Below are positions 1,457 to 11,972 of a stretch of 11,972 nt of DNA, piece by piece. How positions within the stretch are numbered: position 1 is the stretch's first letter; each line of letters begins with the position of its first letter. The notes beneath the pieces are model-generated. The model did no database searches and was not told the DNA's origin. It saw only the letters and a list, made by a program, of their open reading frames with translations. Origin of the DNA: a virus. The position numbers and the translations under genes are program-made. The stretch lies in UHGV virus genome UHGV-1583900. The stretch is one strand, 5' to 3'.

Positions 1457-2035
1457 ATGGCCATAAAAGGTCTTGAGCAGGCCGTTGAAAACCTCAGCCG
1501 TATCAGCAAAACGGCGGTGCCCGGTGCCGCCGCAATGGCCATTAACCGCGTTGCTTCATCCGCGATATCGCAGTAGGCGTCACAGGTTGCCCGTGAGACA
1601 AAGGTACGCCGGAAACTGGTAAAGGAAAGGGCCAGGCTGAAAAGGGCCACGGTCAAAAATCCGCAGGCCAGAATCAGGGTTAACCGGGGGGATTTGCCCG
1701 TAATAAAGCTGGGTAACGCGCGGATTGTCCTGTCCCGACGCAGGCGTCGTAAAAAGGGGCAGCGTTCAGCCCTGAAAGGTGGCGGCAGCGTGCTTGTGGT
1801 GGGAAACCGTCGTATTCCCGGCGCGTTTATTCAGCAACTGAAAAATGGCCGCTGGCATGTCATGCAGCGTGTGGCCGGGAAAAACCGTTACCCCATTGAT
1901 GTGGTGAAAATCCCGATGGCGGTGCCGCTGACCACGGCGTTTAAACAGAATATTGAACGGATACGGCGTGAACGTCTTCCGAAAGAGCTGGGCTATGCGC
2001 TGCAGCATCAACTGAGAATGGTAATAAAGCGATGA
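1457..2035 (+). pseudogene. Z: Tail completion protein Z interrupted by an in-frame amber codon (TAG at 1574..1576, codon 40)
   Basis: ATG 1457 with GGGGGA upstream. Translation MAIKGLEQAVENLSRISKTAVPGAAAMAINRVASSAISQ*ASQVARETKVRRKLVKE...LRMVIKR. The frame is lambda-Z-like on both sides of the TAG with no frameshift; the 1694..2035 track ORF is the 3' part of the same frame. Confidence 0.85.
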
Positions 2036-6909: not shown

Positions 6910-7607
6910 TGCAGGATATCCGGCAGGAAACACTGAATGAATGCACCCGTGCGGAGCAGTCGGCCAGCGTGGTGCTCTGGGAAATCGACCTGACAGAGGT
7001 CGGTGGAGAACGTTATTTTTTCTGTAATGAGCAGAACGAAAAAGGTGAGCCGGTCACCTGGCAGGGGCGACAGTATCAGCCGTATCCCATTCAGGGGAGC
7101 GGTTTTGAACTGAATGGCAAAGGCACCAGTACGCGCCCCACGCTGACGGTTTCTAACCTGTACGGTATGGTCACCGGGATGGCGGAAGATATGCAGAGTC
7201 TGGTCGGCGGAACGGTGGTCCGGCGTAAGGTTTACGCCCGTTTTCTGGATGCGGTGAACTTCGTCAACGGAAACAGTGGCGCCGATCCGGAGCAGGAGGT
7301 GATCAGCCGCTGGCGCATTGAGCAGTGCAGCGAACTGAGCGCGGTGAGTGCCTCTTTTGTACTGTCCACGCCGACGGAAACGGATGGCGCTGTTTTTCCG
7401 GGACGTATCATGCTGGCCAACACCTGCACCTGGACCTATCGCGGTGATGAGTGCGGTTATCACGGTCCGGCGGTCGCGGATGAATATGACCAGCCGACGT
7501 CCGATATCACGAAGGATAAATGCAGCAAATGCCTGAGCGGTTGTAAGTTCCGCAATAACGTCGGCAACTTTGGCGGCTTCCTTTCCATTAACAAACTTTC
7601 GCAGTAA
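6909..7607 (+). CDS. L: Tail tip protein L (Cys-rich C-terminus, Fe-S cluster binding in lambda)
   Basis: MQDIRQETLNECTRAEQSASVVLWEIDLTEVGGERYFFCNEQNEKGEPVTWQGRQYQPY... 232 aa, matching lambda gpL. Start overlaps the M stop by 1 nt (TGATG). Confidence 0.9.
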   Translation: MQDIRQETLNECTRAEQSASVVLWEIDLTEVGGERYFFCNEQNEKGEPVTWQGRQYQPYPIQGSGFELNGKGTSTRPTLTVSNLYGMVTGMAEDMQSLVGGTVVRRKVYARFLDAVNFVNGNSGADPEQEVISRWRIEQCSELSAVSASFVLSTPTETDGAVFPGRIMLANTCTWTYRGDECGYHGPAVADEYDQPTSDITKDKCSKCLSGCKFRNNVGNFGGFLSINKLSQ

Positions 7608-7612
7608 ATCCC

Positions 7613-8356
7613 ATGACACAGACAGAATCAGCGATTCTGGCGCACGCCCGGCGATGTGCGCCAGCGGAGTCGTGCGGCTTCGTGGTAAGCACGCCGGAGG
7701 GGGAAAGATATTTTCCCTGCGTGAATATCTCCGGTGAGCCGGAGGCGTATTTCCGTATGTCGCCGGAAGACTGGCTGCAGGCAGAAATGCAGGGTGAGAT
7801 TGTGGCGCTGGTCCACAGCCACCCCGGTGGTCTGCCCTGGCTGAGTGAGGCCGACCGGCGGCTGCAGGTGCAGAGTGATTTGCCGTGGTGGCTGGTCTGC
7901 CGGGGTGAGATTCATAAATTCCGCTGTGTGCCGCATCTCACCGGGCGGCGCTTTGAGCACGGGGTGACGGACTGTTACACGCTGTTCCGGGACGCTTACC
8001 ATCTGGCGGGAATTGAGATGCCGGATTTTCATCGCGGGGATGACTGGTGGCGTAACGGCCAGAATCTCTATCTGGATAATCTGGAGGCGACGGGGCTGTA
8101 TCAGGTGCCGTTGTCAGCGGCACAGCCGGGCGATGTGCTGCTGTGCTGTTTTGGTTCATCAGTGCCGAATCACGCCGCAATTTACTGCGGCGACGGCGAG
8201 CTGCTGCACCATATTCCTGAACAACTGAGCAAACGAGAGAGGTATACCGACAAATGGCAGCGACGCACACACTCCCTCTGGCGTCACCGGGCATGGCACG
8301 CATCTGCCTTTACGGGGATTTACAACGATTTGGCCGCCGCATCGACCTTCGTGTGA
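7613..8356 (+). CDS. K: Tail tip assembly protein K (JAB/MPN metalloprotease-like domain + NlpC/P60-like domain); classical lambda annotation starts at the internal ATG 7757
   Basis: ORF of 247 codons from ATG 7613, 5 nt after the L stop. JAMM-type motif HSHPGGLPWLSEAD at 7814..7855 with an upstream E-x-CG element (AESCGFVV); downstream Cys/His papain-like residues (VTDCYTLF, NHAAIY). Internal ATG at 7757 preceded by GGAGG gives the 199-aa version. Confidence 0.8.
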   Translation: MTQTESAILAHARRCAPAESCGFVVSTPEGERYFPCVNISGEPEAYFRMSPEDWLQAEMQGEIVALVHSHPGGLPWLSEADRRLQVQSDLPWWLVCRGEIHKFRCVPHLTGRRFEHGVTDCYTLFRDAYHLAGIEMPDFHRGDDWWRNGQNLYLDNLEATGLYQVPLSAAQPGDVLLCCFGSSVPNHAAIYCGDGELLHHIPEQLSKRERYTDKWQRRTHSLWRHRAWHASAFTGIYNDLAAASTFV

Positions 8357-8925
8357 AAACGGGGGCTGAAGCCATCCGGGCACTGGCCACACAGCTCCCG
8401 GCGTTTCGTCAGAAACTGAGCGACGGCTGGTATCAGGTACGGATTGCCGGGCGGGACGTCAGCACGTCCGGGTTAACGGCGCAGTTACATGAGACTCTGC
8501 CTGATGGCGCTGTGATTCATATTGTTCCCAGAGTCGCCGGGGCCAAGTCAGGTGGCGTATTCCAGATTGTCCTGGGGGCTGCCGCCATTGCCGGATCATT
8601 CTTTACCGCCGGAGCCACCCTTGCAGCATGGGGGGCAGCCATTGGGGCCGGTGGTATGACCGGCATCCTGTTTTCTCTCGGTGCCAGTATGGTGCTCGGT
8701 GGTGTGGCGCAGATGCTGGCACCGAAAGCCAGAACTCCCCGTACACAGACAACGGATAACGGCAAACAGAACACCTATTTCTCCTCACTGGATAACATGG
8801 TTGCCCAGGGCAATGTTCTGCCTGTTCTGTACGGGGAAATGCGCGTGGGGTCACGCGTGGTTTCTCAGGAGATCAGCACGGCAGACGAAGGGGACGGTGG
8901 TCAGGTTGTGGTGATTGGTCGCTGA
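8254..8925 (+). CDS. I: Tail tip assembly protein I (ubiquitin-like N-terminal region, hydrophobic Gly/Ala-rich central segment)
   Basis: MAATHTLPLASPGMARICLYGDLQRFGRRIDLRVKTGAEAIRALATQLPAFRQKL... 223 aa, matching lambda gpI. Overlaps the last 103 nt of K in a different frame. Confidence 0.9.
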   Translation: MAATHTLPLASPGMARICLYGDLQRFGRRIDLRVKTGAEAIRALATQLPAFRQKLSDGWYQVRIAGRDVSTSGLTAQLHETLPDGAVIHIVPRVAGAKSGGVFQIVLGAAAIAGSFFTAGATLAAWGAAIGAGGMTGILFSLGASMVLGGVAQMLAPKARTPRTQTTDNGKQNTYFSSLDNMVAQGNVLPVLYGEMRVGSRVVSQEISTADEGDGGQVVVIGR

Positions 8926-8985: not shown

Positions 8986-11972
8986 ATGGGTAAAGGAAGC
9001 AGTAAGGGGCATACCCCGCGCGAAGCGAAGGACAACCTGAAGTCCACGCAGTTGCTGAGTGTGATCGATGCCATCAGCGAAGGGCCGATTGAAGGTCCGG
9101 TGGATGGATTAAAAAGCGTGCTGCTGAACAGTACGCCGGTGCTGGACAGTGAGGGGAATACCAACATCTCCGGTGTCACGGTGGTGTTCCGGGCAGGTGA
9201 GCAGGAGCAGAGTCCGCCGGAGGGATTTGAATCCTCCGGCTCCGAGACGGTGCTGGGTACGGAAGTGAAATATGACACGCCGATCACCCGCACCATCACG
9301 TCGGCAAACATCGACCGTCTGCGCTTTACCTTCGGTGTGCAGGCACTGGTGGAAACCACCTCAAAGGGGGACCGGAATCCGTCGGAAGTCCGCCTGCTGG
9401 TTCAGATACAGCGTAATGGTGGCTGGGTGACGGAAAAAGACATCACCATTAAGGGCAAAACCACCTCGCAGTATCTGGCCTCGGTGGTGGTGGATAACCT
9501 GCCGCCGCGCCCGTTTAATATCCGGATGCGCAGGATGACGCCGGACAGCACCACAGACCAGCTGCAGAACAAAACGCTCTGGTCGTCATACACCGAAATC
9601 ATCGATGTGAAACAGTGCTACCCGAACACGGCACTGGTCGGCGTGCAGGTGGACTCGGAACAGTTCGGCAGCCAGCAGGTGAGCCGTAATTATCATCTTC
9701 GCGGGCGCATTCTGCAGGTGCCGTCGAACTATAACCCGCAGACGCGGCAATACAGCGGTATCTGGGACGGAACGTTTAAGCCAGCATACAGCAACAACAT
9801 GGCCTGGTGTCTGTGGGATATGCTGACCCATCCGCGCTACGGCATGGGGAAACGTCTTGGTGCGGCGGATGTGGACAAATGGGCGCTGTATGTCATCGGC
9901 CAGTACTGCGACCAGTCAGTGCCGGACGGCTTTGGCGGCACGGAGCCGCGCATCACCTGTAATGCGTACCTGACCACACAGCGCAAGGCGTGGGATGTGC
10001 TCAGTGATTTCTGCTCGGCGATGCGCTGTATGCCGGTATGGAACGGGCAGACGCTGACGTTCGTGCAGGACCGACCGTCGGATAAGGTGTGGACCTATAA
10101 CCGCAGTAATGTGGTGATGCCGGATGATGGCGCGCCGTTCCGCTACAGCTTCAGCGCCCTGAAGGACCGCCATAATGCCGTTGAGGTGAACTGGATTGAC
10201 CCGAACAACGGCTGGGAGACGGCGACAGAGCTTGTTGAAGATACGCAGGCCATTGCCCGTTACGGTCGTAACGTCACGAAGATGGATGCCTTTGGCTGTA
10301 CCAGCCGGGGGCAGGCGCACCGCGCCGGGCTGTGGCTGATTAAAACGGAACTGCTGGAAACGCAGACCGTGGACTTCAGCGTGGGTGCGGAAGGGCTTCG
10401 CCATGTGCCGGGCGATGTCATTGAAATCTGCGATGATGACTATGCGGGGATCAGCACCGGCGGGCGCGTGCTGGCGGTGAACAGCCAGACCCGGACGCTG
10501 ACGCTCGACCGTGAAATCACGCTGCCATCCTCCGGTACCACGCTGATAAGCCTGGTTGACGGAAGTGGCAATCCGGTCAGCGTGGAGGTCCAGTCCGTCA
10601 CCGACGGCGTGAAGGTAAAAGTGAGCCGTGTTCCTGACGGCGTTGCCGGATACAGCGTATGGGGGCTGAAGCTGCCGACGCTGCGCCAGCGCCTGTTCCG
10701 CTGCGTGAGTATCCGTGAGAACGACGACGGCACGTATGCCATCACCGCCGTGCAGCATGTACCGGAAAAAGAAGCCATCGTGGATAACGGGGCGCACTTT
10801 GACGGCGACCAGAGCGGCACGGTGAATGGTGTCACGCCGCCAGCGGTGCAGCACCTGACTGCCGAAGTCACCGCAGACAGCGGGGAATATCAGGTGCTGG
10901 CGCGCTGGGACACGCCGAAGGTGGTGAAGGGCGTGAGTTTCATGCTTCGCCTGACCGTGGCAGCGGATGACGGCAGTGAGCGGCTGGTCAGCACGGCCCG
11001 GACGACGGAAACCACTTACCGCTTCACACAACTGGCTCTGGGGAACTACAGGCTGACAGTCCGGGCAGTAAATGCGTGGGGGCAGCAGGGCGATCCGGCG
11101 TCGGTATCGTTCCGGATTGCCGCACCGGCAGCGCCGTCGCGGATTGAGCTGACGCCGGGCTATTTTCAGATAACCGCCACGCCGCATCTTGCGGTTTATG
11201 ACCCGACGGTACAGTTTGAGTTCTGGTTCTCGGAAAAGCGGATTGCGGATATCAGGCAGGTTGAAACCACAGCCCGCTATCTTGGCACGGCGCTGTACTG
11301 GATAGCCGCCAGTATCAATATCAAACCGGGCCATGATTATTACTTTTATATCCGCAGTGTGAACACCGTTGGCAAATCGGCATTCGTGGAGGCTGTCGGT
11401 CAGCCGAGTGATGATGCATCAGGCTATCTGGATTTTTTCAAAGGCGAGATAGGGAAAACCCATCTGGCTCAGGAGCTGTGGACGCAGATTGATAACGGTC
11501 AGCTTGCGCCTGACCTGACTGAAATCAGGACGTCCATAACGGATGTCAGCAATGAAATCACACAGACCGTCAATAAGAAACTGGAAGACCAGAGTGCAGC
11601 GATCCAGCAGATACAGAAGGTTCAGGTTGATACAAATAATAACCTGAACAGCATGTGGGCAGTGAAGCTGCAGCAGATGCAGGACGGACGCCTTTATATT
11701 GCGGGTATCGGTGCCGGTATTGAGAACACCCCTGACGGCATGCAGAGTCAGGTGCTGCTGGCGGCGGACAGGATTGCGATGATTAATCCTGCAAATGGCA
11801 ACACAAAACCGATGTTTGTTGGTCAGGGTGATCAGATATTCATGAATGAAGTGTTCCTGAAATATCTGACGGCTCCCACCATTACCAGCGGCGGTAATCC
11901 TCCGGCATTTTCCCTGACACCGGACGGGCGGCTGACGGCGAAAAATGCTGATATCAGCGGTAACGTGAATGC
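8986..11972 (+). CDS. J: Central tail fiber / host specificity protein J, N-terminal ~995 codons (runs off the right edge of the window)
   Basis: ATG 8986 preceded by GAGGAA. Translation [54 protein letters not shown]... matches lambda gpJ. Frame read codon by codon to 11972 with no stop; absent from the ORF track only because it is open-ended. Confidence 0.92.

What the first reader, a model, noticed from the sequence alone, without database searches (positions are those of the whole stretch)
7613..8356. K reads as a 247-codon JAB/MPN + NlpC/P60 two-domain protein; the classical start at 7757 would cut the JAB domain
The ORF runs from ATG 7613, right after the L stop, through a JAMM-like motif (HSHPGGLPWLSEAD, 7814..7855) and a papain-like Cys/His region. 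The upstream Glu/Cys-Gly element expected of a JAB domain (AESCGFVV) lies before the internal Met at 7757 that corresponds to the 199-aa lambda K annotation. If the JAB domain is functional the longer product is needed. The downstream gene I has a ubiquitin-like N-terminus, so K and I may form a deconjugation-type pair acting during tail tip assembly.
Basis: partly seen in the sequence, partly recalled or inferred. Interest (0 to 1): 0.5.

Follow-up and report, generated by a model that had tools for sequence, protein, structure and literature searches.

The report
Lambda tail gene K, full-length form
This is the well-known phage lambda tail-assembly gene K, and its true product is a 247-residue two-protease protein rather than the 199 residues still given in the reference lambda record, which lacks one G; the domains and K's partnership with gene I are already published, so the finding is correct but not new.

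Summary
ORF 7613..8356 encodes 247 aa, with a complete Prok-JAB/MPN domain (aa 3-105, E=4.9e-14) and an NlpC/P60 domain (aa 111-224, E=1.7e-12). Starting at ATG 7757 removes 48 residues, including the catalytic Glu19, and drops the JAB match below Pfam's threshold.

The 199-aa annotation has a simple origin. The 1982 reference sequence (J02459/NC_001416) lacks one G (window 7747 = lambda 14266), 10 nt upstream of that ATG, which breaks the ORF. All independently sequenced lambdas I examined carry the G.

Across 106 distant relatives (32-78% identity) the N-terminal 48 residues and all JAMM and Cys/His catalytic residues are about 95% conserved. Residue 49 is Met in only 15 of them.

Iyer et al. 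(2006) described K as JAB+NlpC/P60 acting on the ubiquitin-like N-terminus of I. A 2025 conference report states that gpK cleaves that domain from gpI during tail-tip assembly. Cryo-EM resolves only gpI 134/135-223 in virions.

Two points stay open: the role of the NlpC/P60 domain, and whether lambda also makes a 199-aa isoform from the strong internal SD-like site.

Novelty: already known. Interest: low.

The parts
7605..7607 (+). Stop codon (TAA) of tail gene L, 5 nt before the K start
7613..8356 (+). Gene K, full-length ORF (247 codons plus stop)
   Evidence: ORF list and translation. RefSeq/PGAP annotates the same 744-nt CDS in E. coli prophages. The exact protein is in NCBI as 'phage tail protein'.
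7613..7756 (+). The 48 N-terminal codons omitted by the classical 199-aa lambda annotation. They encode helix 3-15 and two strands of the JAB core.
   Evidence: The segment is conserved in 102 of 106 distant relatives. Variable sites show a third-position excess, 22/48 against 11 and 7 at positions 1 and 2. The AF2 model has pLDDT of about 90 here.
7619..7927 (+). JAB/MPN+ (JAMM) metalloprotease domain, residues 3-105
   Evidence: Pfam PF14464, E=4.9e-14; 2kks alignment; Foldseek hits to PfJAMM1, Rpn11 and CSN5
7667..7669 (+). Codon for Glu19, the upstream catalytic Glu of the E-x(n)-H-S-H-x7-S-x2-D motif, within PAESCG
   Evidence: Invariant in A1 and present in 100 of 106 distant relatives. 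It aligns to PNEACG and PEEGCG of solved JAB proteins.
7741..7745 (+). GGAGG, a Shine-Dalgarno-like sequence 11 nt upstream of the internal ATG. It also encodes part of Pro-Glu-Ala.
   Evidence: Duplex energy with the 16S rRNA tail is -9.5 kcal/mol. The GGAGG is also kept in Stx-phage relatives whose codon 49 is ATC or ATT.
7747..7747 (+). The G that is absent from the reference lambda sequence J02459/NC_001416 (lambda position 14266). Its absence breaks the long ORF.
   Evidence: PMC6760142
7757..7759 (+). Internal ATG (Met49), the start of the classical 199-aa annotation
   Evidence: The residue is not conserved: Ile 65, Met 15, Leu 13, Val 6 of 106 relatives.
7814..7855 (+). JAMM zinc-site motif HSHPGGLPWLSEAD (H68, H70, S78, D81)
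   Evidence: These residues are invariant or nearly so: 102, 101, 96 and 102 of 106.
7943..8284 (+). NlpC/P60 (C40) papain-like peptidase domain, residues 111-224. Catalytic residues are Cys121 (7973-7975), His187 (8171-8173) and His199 (8207-8209).
   Evidence: Pfam PF00877, E=1.7e-12. C121, H187 and H199 are present in 100, 101 and 101 of 106 relatives. MepS appears among the fold hits.
8254..8925 (+). Gene I, the substrate partner. It has an N-terminal ubiquitin-like domain (about residues 14-97, nt 8293-8544), a hydrophobic Gly/Ala-rich linker, and a C-terminal plug domain.
   Evidence: Pfam PF06805. Alignment A2 shows invariant P92, R93, G96 and A97. Fold hits to MoaD, SAMP1, SUMO and ubiquitin come from a low-confidence model. 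Cryo-EM resolves only residues 134/135-223.
8254..8356 (+). 103-nt overlap of K (its C-terminal 34 codons) and I (its N-terminal 34 codons), with I in the -1 frame relative to K
   Evidence: The clear third-position excess seen in the rest of K is weaker here.

Best explanation
The ORF 7613..8356 is the authentic gene K of a lambda-type phage. It encodes a 247-aa, roughly 28-kDa non-structural tail-tip assembly enzyme with two protease domains.

Translation most likely starts at ATG 7613 by coupling to termination of L, 5 nt upstream. There is no Shine-Dalgarno sequence there.

The N-terminal JAB/MPN+ domain is a zinc metalloprotease with Glu19, His68, His70, Ser78 and Asp81. It recognises the ubiquitin-like beta-grasp domain at the N-terminus of gpI and cuts it from the C-terminal plug domain. 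The cut is probably at the conserved Gly-Ala after the PR-x-x motif, near residues 96-97. It happens once gpI has docked on gpJ/gpL, and so makes tail-tip assembly stepwise and irreversible. K itself then leaves and is absent from virions.

The C-terminal NlpC/P60 domain (Cys121, His187, His199) is a conserved second active site whose substrate is unknown.

The 199-aa 'classical' K is an annotation artefact. The 1982 reference sequence lacks one G (lambda 14266), which splits the ORF, and the short start has been copied into later records.

Shown here: the ORF, the domains, conservation, the origin of the annotation error, and non-conservation of the internal start. Taken from the literature: cleavage of gpI by gpK, and absence of K from virions. 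Inferred: translational coupling, the exact cleavage site, and an active NlpC/P60 domain.
For: Domains. Pfam shows a full-length JAB domain plus NlpC/P60; the 199-aa form loses the JAB match. NCBIfam's nearest model is desampylase, over residues 3-115. A profile of K aligns to the solved JAB protein 2kks over residues 4-107, including the P-x-E-x-CG element. In the AF2 model the JAB half has pLDDT of about 90, and residues 3-36 form a helix and two core strands. The top Foldseek hits are PfJAMM1 (alone and with the Ubl SAMP2), Rpn11 and CSN5.

Conservation. In 20 relatives at 68-96% identity the N-terminus is full of invariant columns. In 106 cluster representatives at 32-78% identity, E19, H68, H70, S78 and D81 are present in 100, 102, 101, 96 and 102; C121, H187 and H199 in 100, 101 and 101. 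Of these, 102 cover the N-terminal 48 residues. Residue 49 is Met in only 15. Stx-phage relatives have ATC or ATT at codon 49. Distant enterobacterial loci have 241-248-codon ORFs starting just after the upstream gene, several of them with a good SD.

Origin of the annotation error. J02459 and NC_001416 lack the G at 14266, so the ATG-14133 ORF shifts frame and stops after 76 codons. Only 4 of 122 phage records are identical to that version. Fourteen lambda-contaminant contigs all carry the intact ORF. MutaMouse lambda-gt10 reads give 14266 C>CG (PMC6760142). The 247-aa form dominates the databases: its 90% cluster has 12,883 members, against 2,159 for the 199-aa cluster. PGAP annotates 744 nt.

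Function. Iyer et al. 2006 made the prediction. The Davidson talk summary says gpK cleaves the Ubl domain of gpI after gpI has engaged the tip complex (PMC12908700). gpK is absent from virion mass spectrometry, and only gpI 134/135-223 is resolved. The F-pyocin homologue PA0639 is essential for tip formation, and only residues 127-200 of its gpI homologue are visible.
Against: Start site. ATG 7613 has no Shine-Dalgarno sequence (+0.7 kcal/mol). The internal ATG 7757 has GGAGG at -9.5 kcal/mol with 11-nt spacing, so some internal initiation in lambda itself cannot be excluded. I found no protein-level datum (N-terminal sequence, gel size or peptides) for K in the papers I could read.

Function. 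The cleavage of gpI by gpK rests on a conference summary, not on a paper whose data I could read. The absence of the gpI N-terminal part from cryo-EM maps could also reflect disorder.

Models. The NlpC/P60 half of the model has only moderate confidence (pLDDT 40-86). The gpI model is poor (mean pLDDT 44.7), so its Ubl fold hits are only suggestive.
Confidence: 0.88

Rival explanations
1. Two isoforms. Lambda-type phages with Met49 make both the 247-aa JAB+NlpC/P60 protein and a 199-aa NlpC/P60-only protein, the second initiated at ATG 7757 from the internal GGAGG. The short form would have a role of its own.
For: There is a strong SD-like site 11 nt upstream of ATG 7757 (-9.5 kcal/mol) and none at 7613. 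Iyer et al. note natural TAPK versions with only an NlpC/P60 domain. Annotators of resequenced lambdas mark this site as an RBS.
Against: Met49 occurs in only 15 of 106 relatives. Stx-phage relatives keep the GGAGG but have ATC or ATT at codon 49, so the GGAGG is explained by its coding for Pro-Glu-Ala. The 11-nt spacing is longer than optimal. A 199-aa product would carry a headless half of the JAB fold, residues 49-105.
Confidence: 0.1
2. Only the 199-aa product is made and is sufficient. On this view the upstream 48 codons are an untranslated or vestigial remnant in lambda.
For: This is the historical annotation (J02459, NC_001416, UniProt TIPK_LAMBD). The internal SD is strong.
Against: The annotation comes from a sequence that lacks a base present in all other lambdas examined. 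The upstream codons are under purifying selection and contain the invariant catalytic Glu. The reported deubiquitinase-type activity of gpK needs an intact JAB domain (together with the established JAMM mechanism in PMC300881).
Confidence: 0.02
3. The JAB domain is a catalytically dead MPN- scaffold that only binds the Ubl of gpI, and the NlpC/P60 cysteine protease does the cutting.
For: Many MPN domains (Rpn8, CSN6) are non-catalytic partners. Iyer et al. allow that NlpC/P60 may also process the Ubl protein.
Against: Every JAMM catalytic residue (E19, H68, S69, H70, S78, D81) is conserved at 91-96% across relatives at 32-78% identity. MPN- proteins lack these residues. The conference summary attributes the cleavage to the 'deubiquitinating domain'.
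Confidence: 0.04

Closest known systems
Phage lambda tail tip assembly protein K (gpK; UniProt TIPK_LAMBD/P03729; J02459 CDS 14276..14875)
   Same: It is the same gene in the same L-K-I-J context. The DNA is about 98% identical. The protein differs at 4 of 247 residues (E99T, G142E, H229R, A241V) from the long form encoded by resequenced lambda.
   Different: The reference record and UniProt give 199 aa because J02459 lacks the G at 14266. The window, like all other lambdas examined, encodes 247 aa.
[quoted passage not shown]
   Same: The match is exact: K has JAB plus NlpC/P60 and sits next to I, which has an N-terminal ThiS/MoaD-like Ubl ending in a conserved Gly, a Gly-rich linker and a C-terminal domain. 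The prediction was that the JAB domain releases the Ubl.
   Different: There is no difference in kind. The window is a typical member.
Archaeal JAMM1 desampylases (PfJAMM1 5ld9/5lda; HvJAMM1, NCBIfam NF041370) and eukaryotic Rpn11/CSN5
   Same: They share the MPN+ fold and the E-x(n)-H-S/T-H-x7-S-x2-D zinc site, and they act at the C-terminus of a beta-grasp Ubl (PMC300881).
   Different: Those enzymes remove Ubls conjugated by an E1/E2 machinery, through isopeptide or linear bonds. K has no E1/E2 partner and cuts a Ubl that is genetically fused to its target. K scores far below the desampylase equivalog cut-off (29.9 against 130 bits) and carries an extra NlpC/P60 domain.
Pseudomonas F-pyocin PA0639 (gpK homologue) and PA0640 (gpI homologue)
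   Same: PA0639 is a non-structural factor required for tip formation. Only the C-terminal part of the plug protein is seen in particles.
   Different: It belongs to a tailocin, not a phage. Its sequence relationship to the window was not tested here.
NlpC/P60 (C40) peptidases such as E. coli MepS
   Same: K has the papain-like Cys-His-His triad and fold.
   Different: MepS is a periplasmic peptidoglycan endopeptidase. K is cytoplasmic, fused to a JAB domain and absent from virions, so a cell-wall substrate is unlikely and its substrate is unknown.

Membership tests
JAB/MPN+ (JAMM) metalloproteases, Pfam Prok-JAB PF14464 | Significant full-length match to the family profile | tested here: met
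   The match scores 52.6 bits (cut-off 25), E=4.9e-14, over residues 3-105 and profile positions 3-113 of 114. The 199-aa form scores 23.6 bits, below the cut-off.
JAB/MPN+ (JAMM) metalloproteases, Pfam Prok-JAB PF14464 | Intact E-x(n)-H-S/T-H-x7-S-x2-D motif | tested here: met
   E19, then H68-S69-H70, seven residues, S78, two residues, D81. These residues are conserved in 96-102 of 106 relatives. The motif definition is from PMC300881.
JAB/MPN+ (JAMM) metalloproteases, Pfam Prok-JAB PF14464 | MPN fold | tested here: met
   The AF2 model has pLDDT of about 90 over most of residues 1-70. The top Foldseek PDB hits are PfJAMM1, Rpn11, CSN5, AfJAMM and 2kks. This is a predicted structure, not a solved one.
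JAB/MPN+ (JAMM) metalloproteases, Pfam Prok-JAB PF14464 | Zinc binding and peptidase or isopeptidase activity on a Ubl C-terminus | not testable with these tools
   This is reported for gpK and gpI only in a conference summary (PMC12908700).
NlpC/P60 (MEROPS C40) peptidases, Pfam PF00877 | Significant full-length profile match | tested here: met
   The match scores 47.7 bits (cut-off 23), E=1.7e-12, over residues 111-224 and profile positions 1-105 of 105.
NlpC/P60 (MEROPS C40) peptidases, Pfam PF00877 | Catalytic Cys, His and a third polar residue | tested here: met
   C121, H187 and H199 (plus H200) are present in 100, 101, 101 and 97 of 106 relatives.
NlpC/P60 (MEROPS C40) peptidases, Pfam PF00877 | Papain-like fold | tested here: inconclusive
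   This half of the model has pLDDT 40-86. MepS appears only at rank 38 (E=1.2e-3, TMt 0.52).
Lambda-type tail tip assembly protein K (TAPK) | Position between tail genes L and I/J, and close identity to lambda K | tested here: met
   The gene order is H-M-L-K-I-J. The protein differs from lambda K at 4 of 247 residues.
Ubiquitin-like beta-grasp domain (gene I N-terminus), Pfam Lambda_tail_I PF06805 | Profile match, plus a beta-grasp fold ending in a conserved Gly | tested here: inconclusive
   PF06805 matches with E=1.1e-28 over residues 14-97. P92, R93, G96 and A97 are invariant. All top 50 fold hits are MoaD, SAMP1, CysO, SUMO, NEDD8 or ubiquitin, but the model has pLDDT of about 55-65 in this domain and the best E-value is 2.9e-3. 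Sequence-profile evidence is in Iyer et al. 2006.

The most novel reading that the evidence does not exclude
The conserved but unassigned NlpC/P60 active site of K (Cys121/His187/His199) may be the long-sought protease that converts the tape-measure protein gpH to gpH*, or that makes a second cut in gpI. In lambda itself it could be delivered partly as a separate 199-aa isoform started at the internal GGAGG/ATG 7757. My evidence does not exclude this. The catalyst of gpH cleavage is stated to be unknown (PMC12617516), and the triad is about 95% conserved.
Probability: 0.07. Interest if true: 0.55.

Novelty: already known. Interest (0 to 1): 0.15.

Why it matters
The scientific content is already in the literature. 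The JAMM motif in lambda K was listed in 2003-2004 (PMC300881). The JAB+NlpC/P60 architecture and the K-I Ubl pairing were described in 2006 (PMC1779556). Cleavage of gpI by gpK was reported at a 2025 meeting (PMC12908700).

What remains useful is practical. The reference lambda records (J02459, NC_001416, UniProt P03729), and several newer lambda genomes that copied them, still give a K truncated by 48 residues. That form lacks the catalytic Glu and a third of the JAB fold.

Work built on that annotation misses the deubiquitinase-like domain. Examples are an HHpred analysis that saw only 'a peptidase domain ... out of 199' residues (PMC7291167), and possibly ORFeome clones used for interaction screens (PMC3224144). 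Anyone cloning or modelling gpK should use the 247-aa ORF.

Tried and rejected
Rejected hypotheses:
- A chance ORF extension. It is ruled out by the profile E-values and by conservation of the first 48 residues in relatives down to 32% identity.
- A real frameshift mutation in lambda. The G is missing only from J02459, its RefSeq copy and two other records, and is present in all other lambdas and in lambda-contaminant contigs.
- A conserved internal start. Met49 is a minority residue, and the GGAGG persists where no start codon follows it.
- A programmed -1 frameshift that fuses K to I in the 103-nt overlap. I read the overlap in the K frame by eye and saw no X XXY YYZ slippery heptamer; this was not a formal scan. 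The K-I fusion proteins in the databases are mostly singleton clusters, likely sequencing errors or pseudogenes.

Steps that led nowhere:
- Liu et al. 2013 (lambda ribosome profiling) and Casjens & Hendrix 2015 are not held in the library. I therefore could not check ribosome density upstream of 14276, or whether those reviews discuss the K start.
- The literature search for '14266' gave only the MutaMouse variant table.
- The gpI structure prediction had low confidence, so the Ubl fold is only weakly supported by my own modelling.
- No solved structure of gpK exists in the PDB copy. The best hit is 2kks at E=1.2e-6.

Full report
**What is in the window.** The window is the head-tail and tail region of a lambda-type phage or prophage. 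It runs from the C-terminal part of E through FI, FII, Z, U, V, G/T, H, M, L, K and I into J, collinear with lambda 6521-18400. The K region is about 98% identical to lambda. The exact K protein of the window is in NCBI as an E. coli 'phage tail protein'.

**Checking the observation.** The ORF 7613..8356 is real and has 247 codons.
- It starts 5 nt after the TAA stop of L (7605-7607).
- The motif HSHPGGLPWLSEAD is residues 68-81, at nt 7814-7855.
- AESCGFVV is residues 18-25.
- The internal Met is residue 49 (ATG 7757). This corresponds to the J02459 annotation 'K (tail component;199)', 14276..14875.

Pfam places a complete Prok-JAB domain on residues 3-105 (52.6 bits, E=4.9e-14) and a complete NlpC/P60 domain on residues 111-224 (47.7 bits, E=1.7e-12). 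The 199-aa form retains only profile positions 63-113 of the JAB model and falls below the gathering threshold at 23.6 bits.

**Why the classical annotation is short.** Aligning the window with lambda records shows that J02459 and its RefSeq copy NC_001416 lack one G. The position is window 7747 = lambda 14266, in GAGGC[G]TATTTCC, 10 nt upstream of the annotated ATG. In J02459 the ORF from ATG 14133 reads MTQTES...GEPEA, then shifts frame and stops after 76 codons. The 1982 annotators could only begin K at the next ATG.
- The base is present in HK630, lambda imm21 and every other independently sequenced lambda I examined. Of 122 phage records matching a 73-nt probe across the site, only four (J02459, NC_001416, OR474059, OR974322) are identical to the G-less version.
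- Fourteen low-coverage contigs in assemblies of unrelated bacteria (Neobacillus, Shewanella, Chromatium and others), several of them about 48.5 kb, are evidently laboratory lambda DNA contamination. All carry an uninterrupted 247-codon K.
- An NGS study of the lambda-gt10 transgene lists 14266 C>CG as a constitutional difference from the reference (PMC6760142).
- From memory, not verified here: the same correction, together with deletion of a G at 138, is listed by suppliers of lambda cI857 Sam7 DNA.

Several resequenced lambdas nonetheless keep the 199-aa CDS, evidently by transfer. Other records annotate 224, 239, 245 or 247 aa, and PGAP annotates the 744-nt CDS in RefSeq E. coli genomes. 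PHROG 7305, a 76-position family of unknown function, matches residues 1-76. It appears to be the orphan ORF created by this frameshift.

**Is the N-terminal extension coding and needed?** Yes, on five lines of evidence.
- In 20 relatives at 68-96% identity the first 48 residues contain 16 invariant columns, including the E19-S20-C21-G22 run of PAESCG.
- In 106 full-length cluster representatives at 32-78% identity (median 38%), 102 cover the extension. E19 is present in 100, C21 in 95, G22 in 102, N38 in 101 and F47 in 97. The downstream JAMM residues H68, H70, S78 and D81 are present in 102, 101, 96 and 102. The NlpC/P60 residues C121, H187 and H199 are present in 100, 101 and 101.
- Residue 49 is Ile in 65, Met in 15, Leu in 13 and Val in 6. 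Stx-phage relatives have ATC or ATT there while keeping the GGAGG, which therefore reflects coding for Pro-Glu-Ala rather than a ribosome-binding site.
- Variable sites in 7613-7756 fall mostly at third codon positions: 22 of 48, against 11 and 7.
- The AF2 model is confident for the JAB half, with pLDDT of about 90. It places helix 3-15 and strands 20-27 and 30-36 in the fold's core. Foldseek returns PfJAMM1 (alone and with the Ubl SAMP2), Rpn11, CSN5, AfJAMM and 2kks. A sequence profile aligns residues 4-107 to 2kks, including its PNEACG element.

The JAMM Glu is the general base of the established mechanism (PMC300881). A 199-aa product would therefore lack both catalysis and a third of the fold.

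**A caveat on initiation.** ATG 7613 has no Shine-Dalgarno sequence (+0.7 kcal/mol) and presumably depends on coupling to L termination. ATG 7757 is preceded at 11 nt by GGAGG (-9.5 kcal/mol). More distant relatives do have SD-like sequences before their long-form ATG. I found no protein-level data on the K N-terminus, so a minor 199-aa isoform in lambda itself cannot be excluded. I give that rival about 10%.

**Function and the link to I.** Gene I (8254..8925) overlaps K by 103 nt.
- Its residues 14-97 match Pfam Lambda_tail_I.
- Relatives share an invariant ...H-x-x-P-R-x-x-G-A... at residues 89-97. A variable hydrophobic Gly/Ala-rich linker and a highly conserved C-terminal domain follow.
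- My model of I is poor (mean pLDDT 44.7). Even so, all top 50 fold hits to its N-terminal domain are MoaD, SAMP1, CysO, SUMO, NEDD8 or ubiquitin. This is suggestive only.

The literature settles the interpretation.
- Ambroggio et al. listed lambda K among JAMM proteins of unknown function.
- Iyer, Burroughs and Aravind (2006) described TAPK as JAB+NlpC/P60 and TAPI as a Ubl with a C-terminal Gly, noted their conserved adjacency, and predicted that the JAB domain releases the Ubl.
- Virion mass spectrometry does not detect gpK. Its single gpI peptide covers 9.87%, which equals 22 residues and matches the length of the C-terminal tryptic peptide; that assignment is my inference.
- Two cryo-EM studies resolve only gpI residues 134/135-223.
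- The F-pyocin gpK homologue PA0639 is required for tip formation, and only the C-terminal part of the gpI homologue is visible in particles.
- A summary of A. [quoted passage not shown]

More exactly, K processes a genetically fused Ubl. No E1 or E2 gene lies among the tail genes E-J in this window.

**What remains open.** The substrate of the conserved NlpC/P60 site is unknown. The catalyst of gpH to gpH* cleavage is also stated to be unknown. Linking the two is speculation, at about 7%.

**Verdict.** The added explanation is a missing G in the reference sequence. The finding is already known, with only annotation-hygiene value, so interest is low.

Noticed in passing
window 1457..2035 (stop at 1574..1576): Tail gene Z carries an in-frame TAG at codon 40 (lambda has TCG, Ser). 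There is no indel and the rest of the gene is intact. Z would be truncated to 39 aa unless the stop is suppressed. This could be a natural nonsense mutation in a decaying prophage or an amber allele.
   Followed up: partly
window 8254..8356 and 8353..8355: The start of gene I is annotated inconsistently. Databases hold a 223-aa form (ATG 8254, SD -9.3 kcal/mol), a 210-aa form (Met14, ATG 8293) and a PGAP 190-aa form (GTG 8353, overlapping the K stop). The 190-aa form would remove residues 15-32, which are invariant among relatives, and so truncate the start of the ubiquitin-like domain. This is a second start-site problem, analogous to the one in K.
   Followed up: partly
L014-L027 (genome-contig loci): Fourteen contigs deposited in assemblies of unrelated bacteria (Neobacillus, Pseudoxanthomonas, Shewanella, Chromatium, Enterococcus, Paenibacillus, Bradyrhizobium and others) are lambda DNA, evidently laboratory or spike-in contamination. 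Most have coverage of about 1, and some are about 48.5 kb.
   Followed up: partly
window 7613..7840 (residues 1-76): PHROG family phrog_7305 ('unknown function', 76 positions) matches K residues 1-76. It appears to be built from the orphan 76-codon ORF created by the missing G in J02459, which would make it a database artefact.
   Followed up: partly
proteins P0014, P0034, P0077, P0116, P0324; phrog_28576, phrog_35166: Database ORFs fuse K (or only its JAB domain) to I. Most are singleton clusters and probably frameshift errors or pseudogenes in the 103-nt overlap. Iyer et al. also noted a JAB-TAPI fusion in an E. coli prophage.
   Followed up: no
window ~11000..11972 (indels at 11479-11608): The distal part of J diverges sharply from lambda. 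There are 56 differences in 11001-11500 and 282 in 11501-11972, with inserted blocks of 36, 27 and 21 nt, against about 5-25 differences per 500 nt elsewhere. This suggests a mosaic receptor-binding end.
   Followed up: no
window 9916..11334 (- strand): A 472-codon ATG ORF lies antisense to gene J. Lambda has no gene annotated there, and it is probably a by-product of J's codon bias.
   Followed up: no
OR474059.1 and OR974322.1 (phage records): These two newer 'lambda' records share the G-less version of position 14266 with J02459. That suggests reference-guided assembly or an in-silico construct rather than independent sequence.
   Followed up: no
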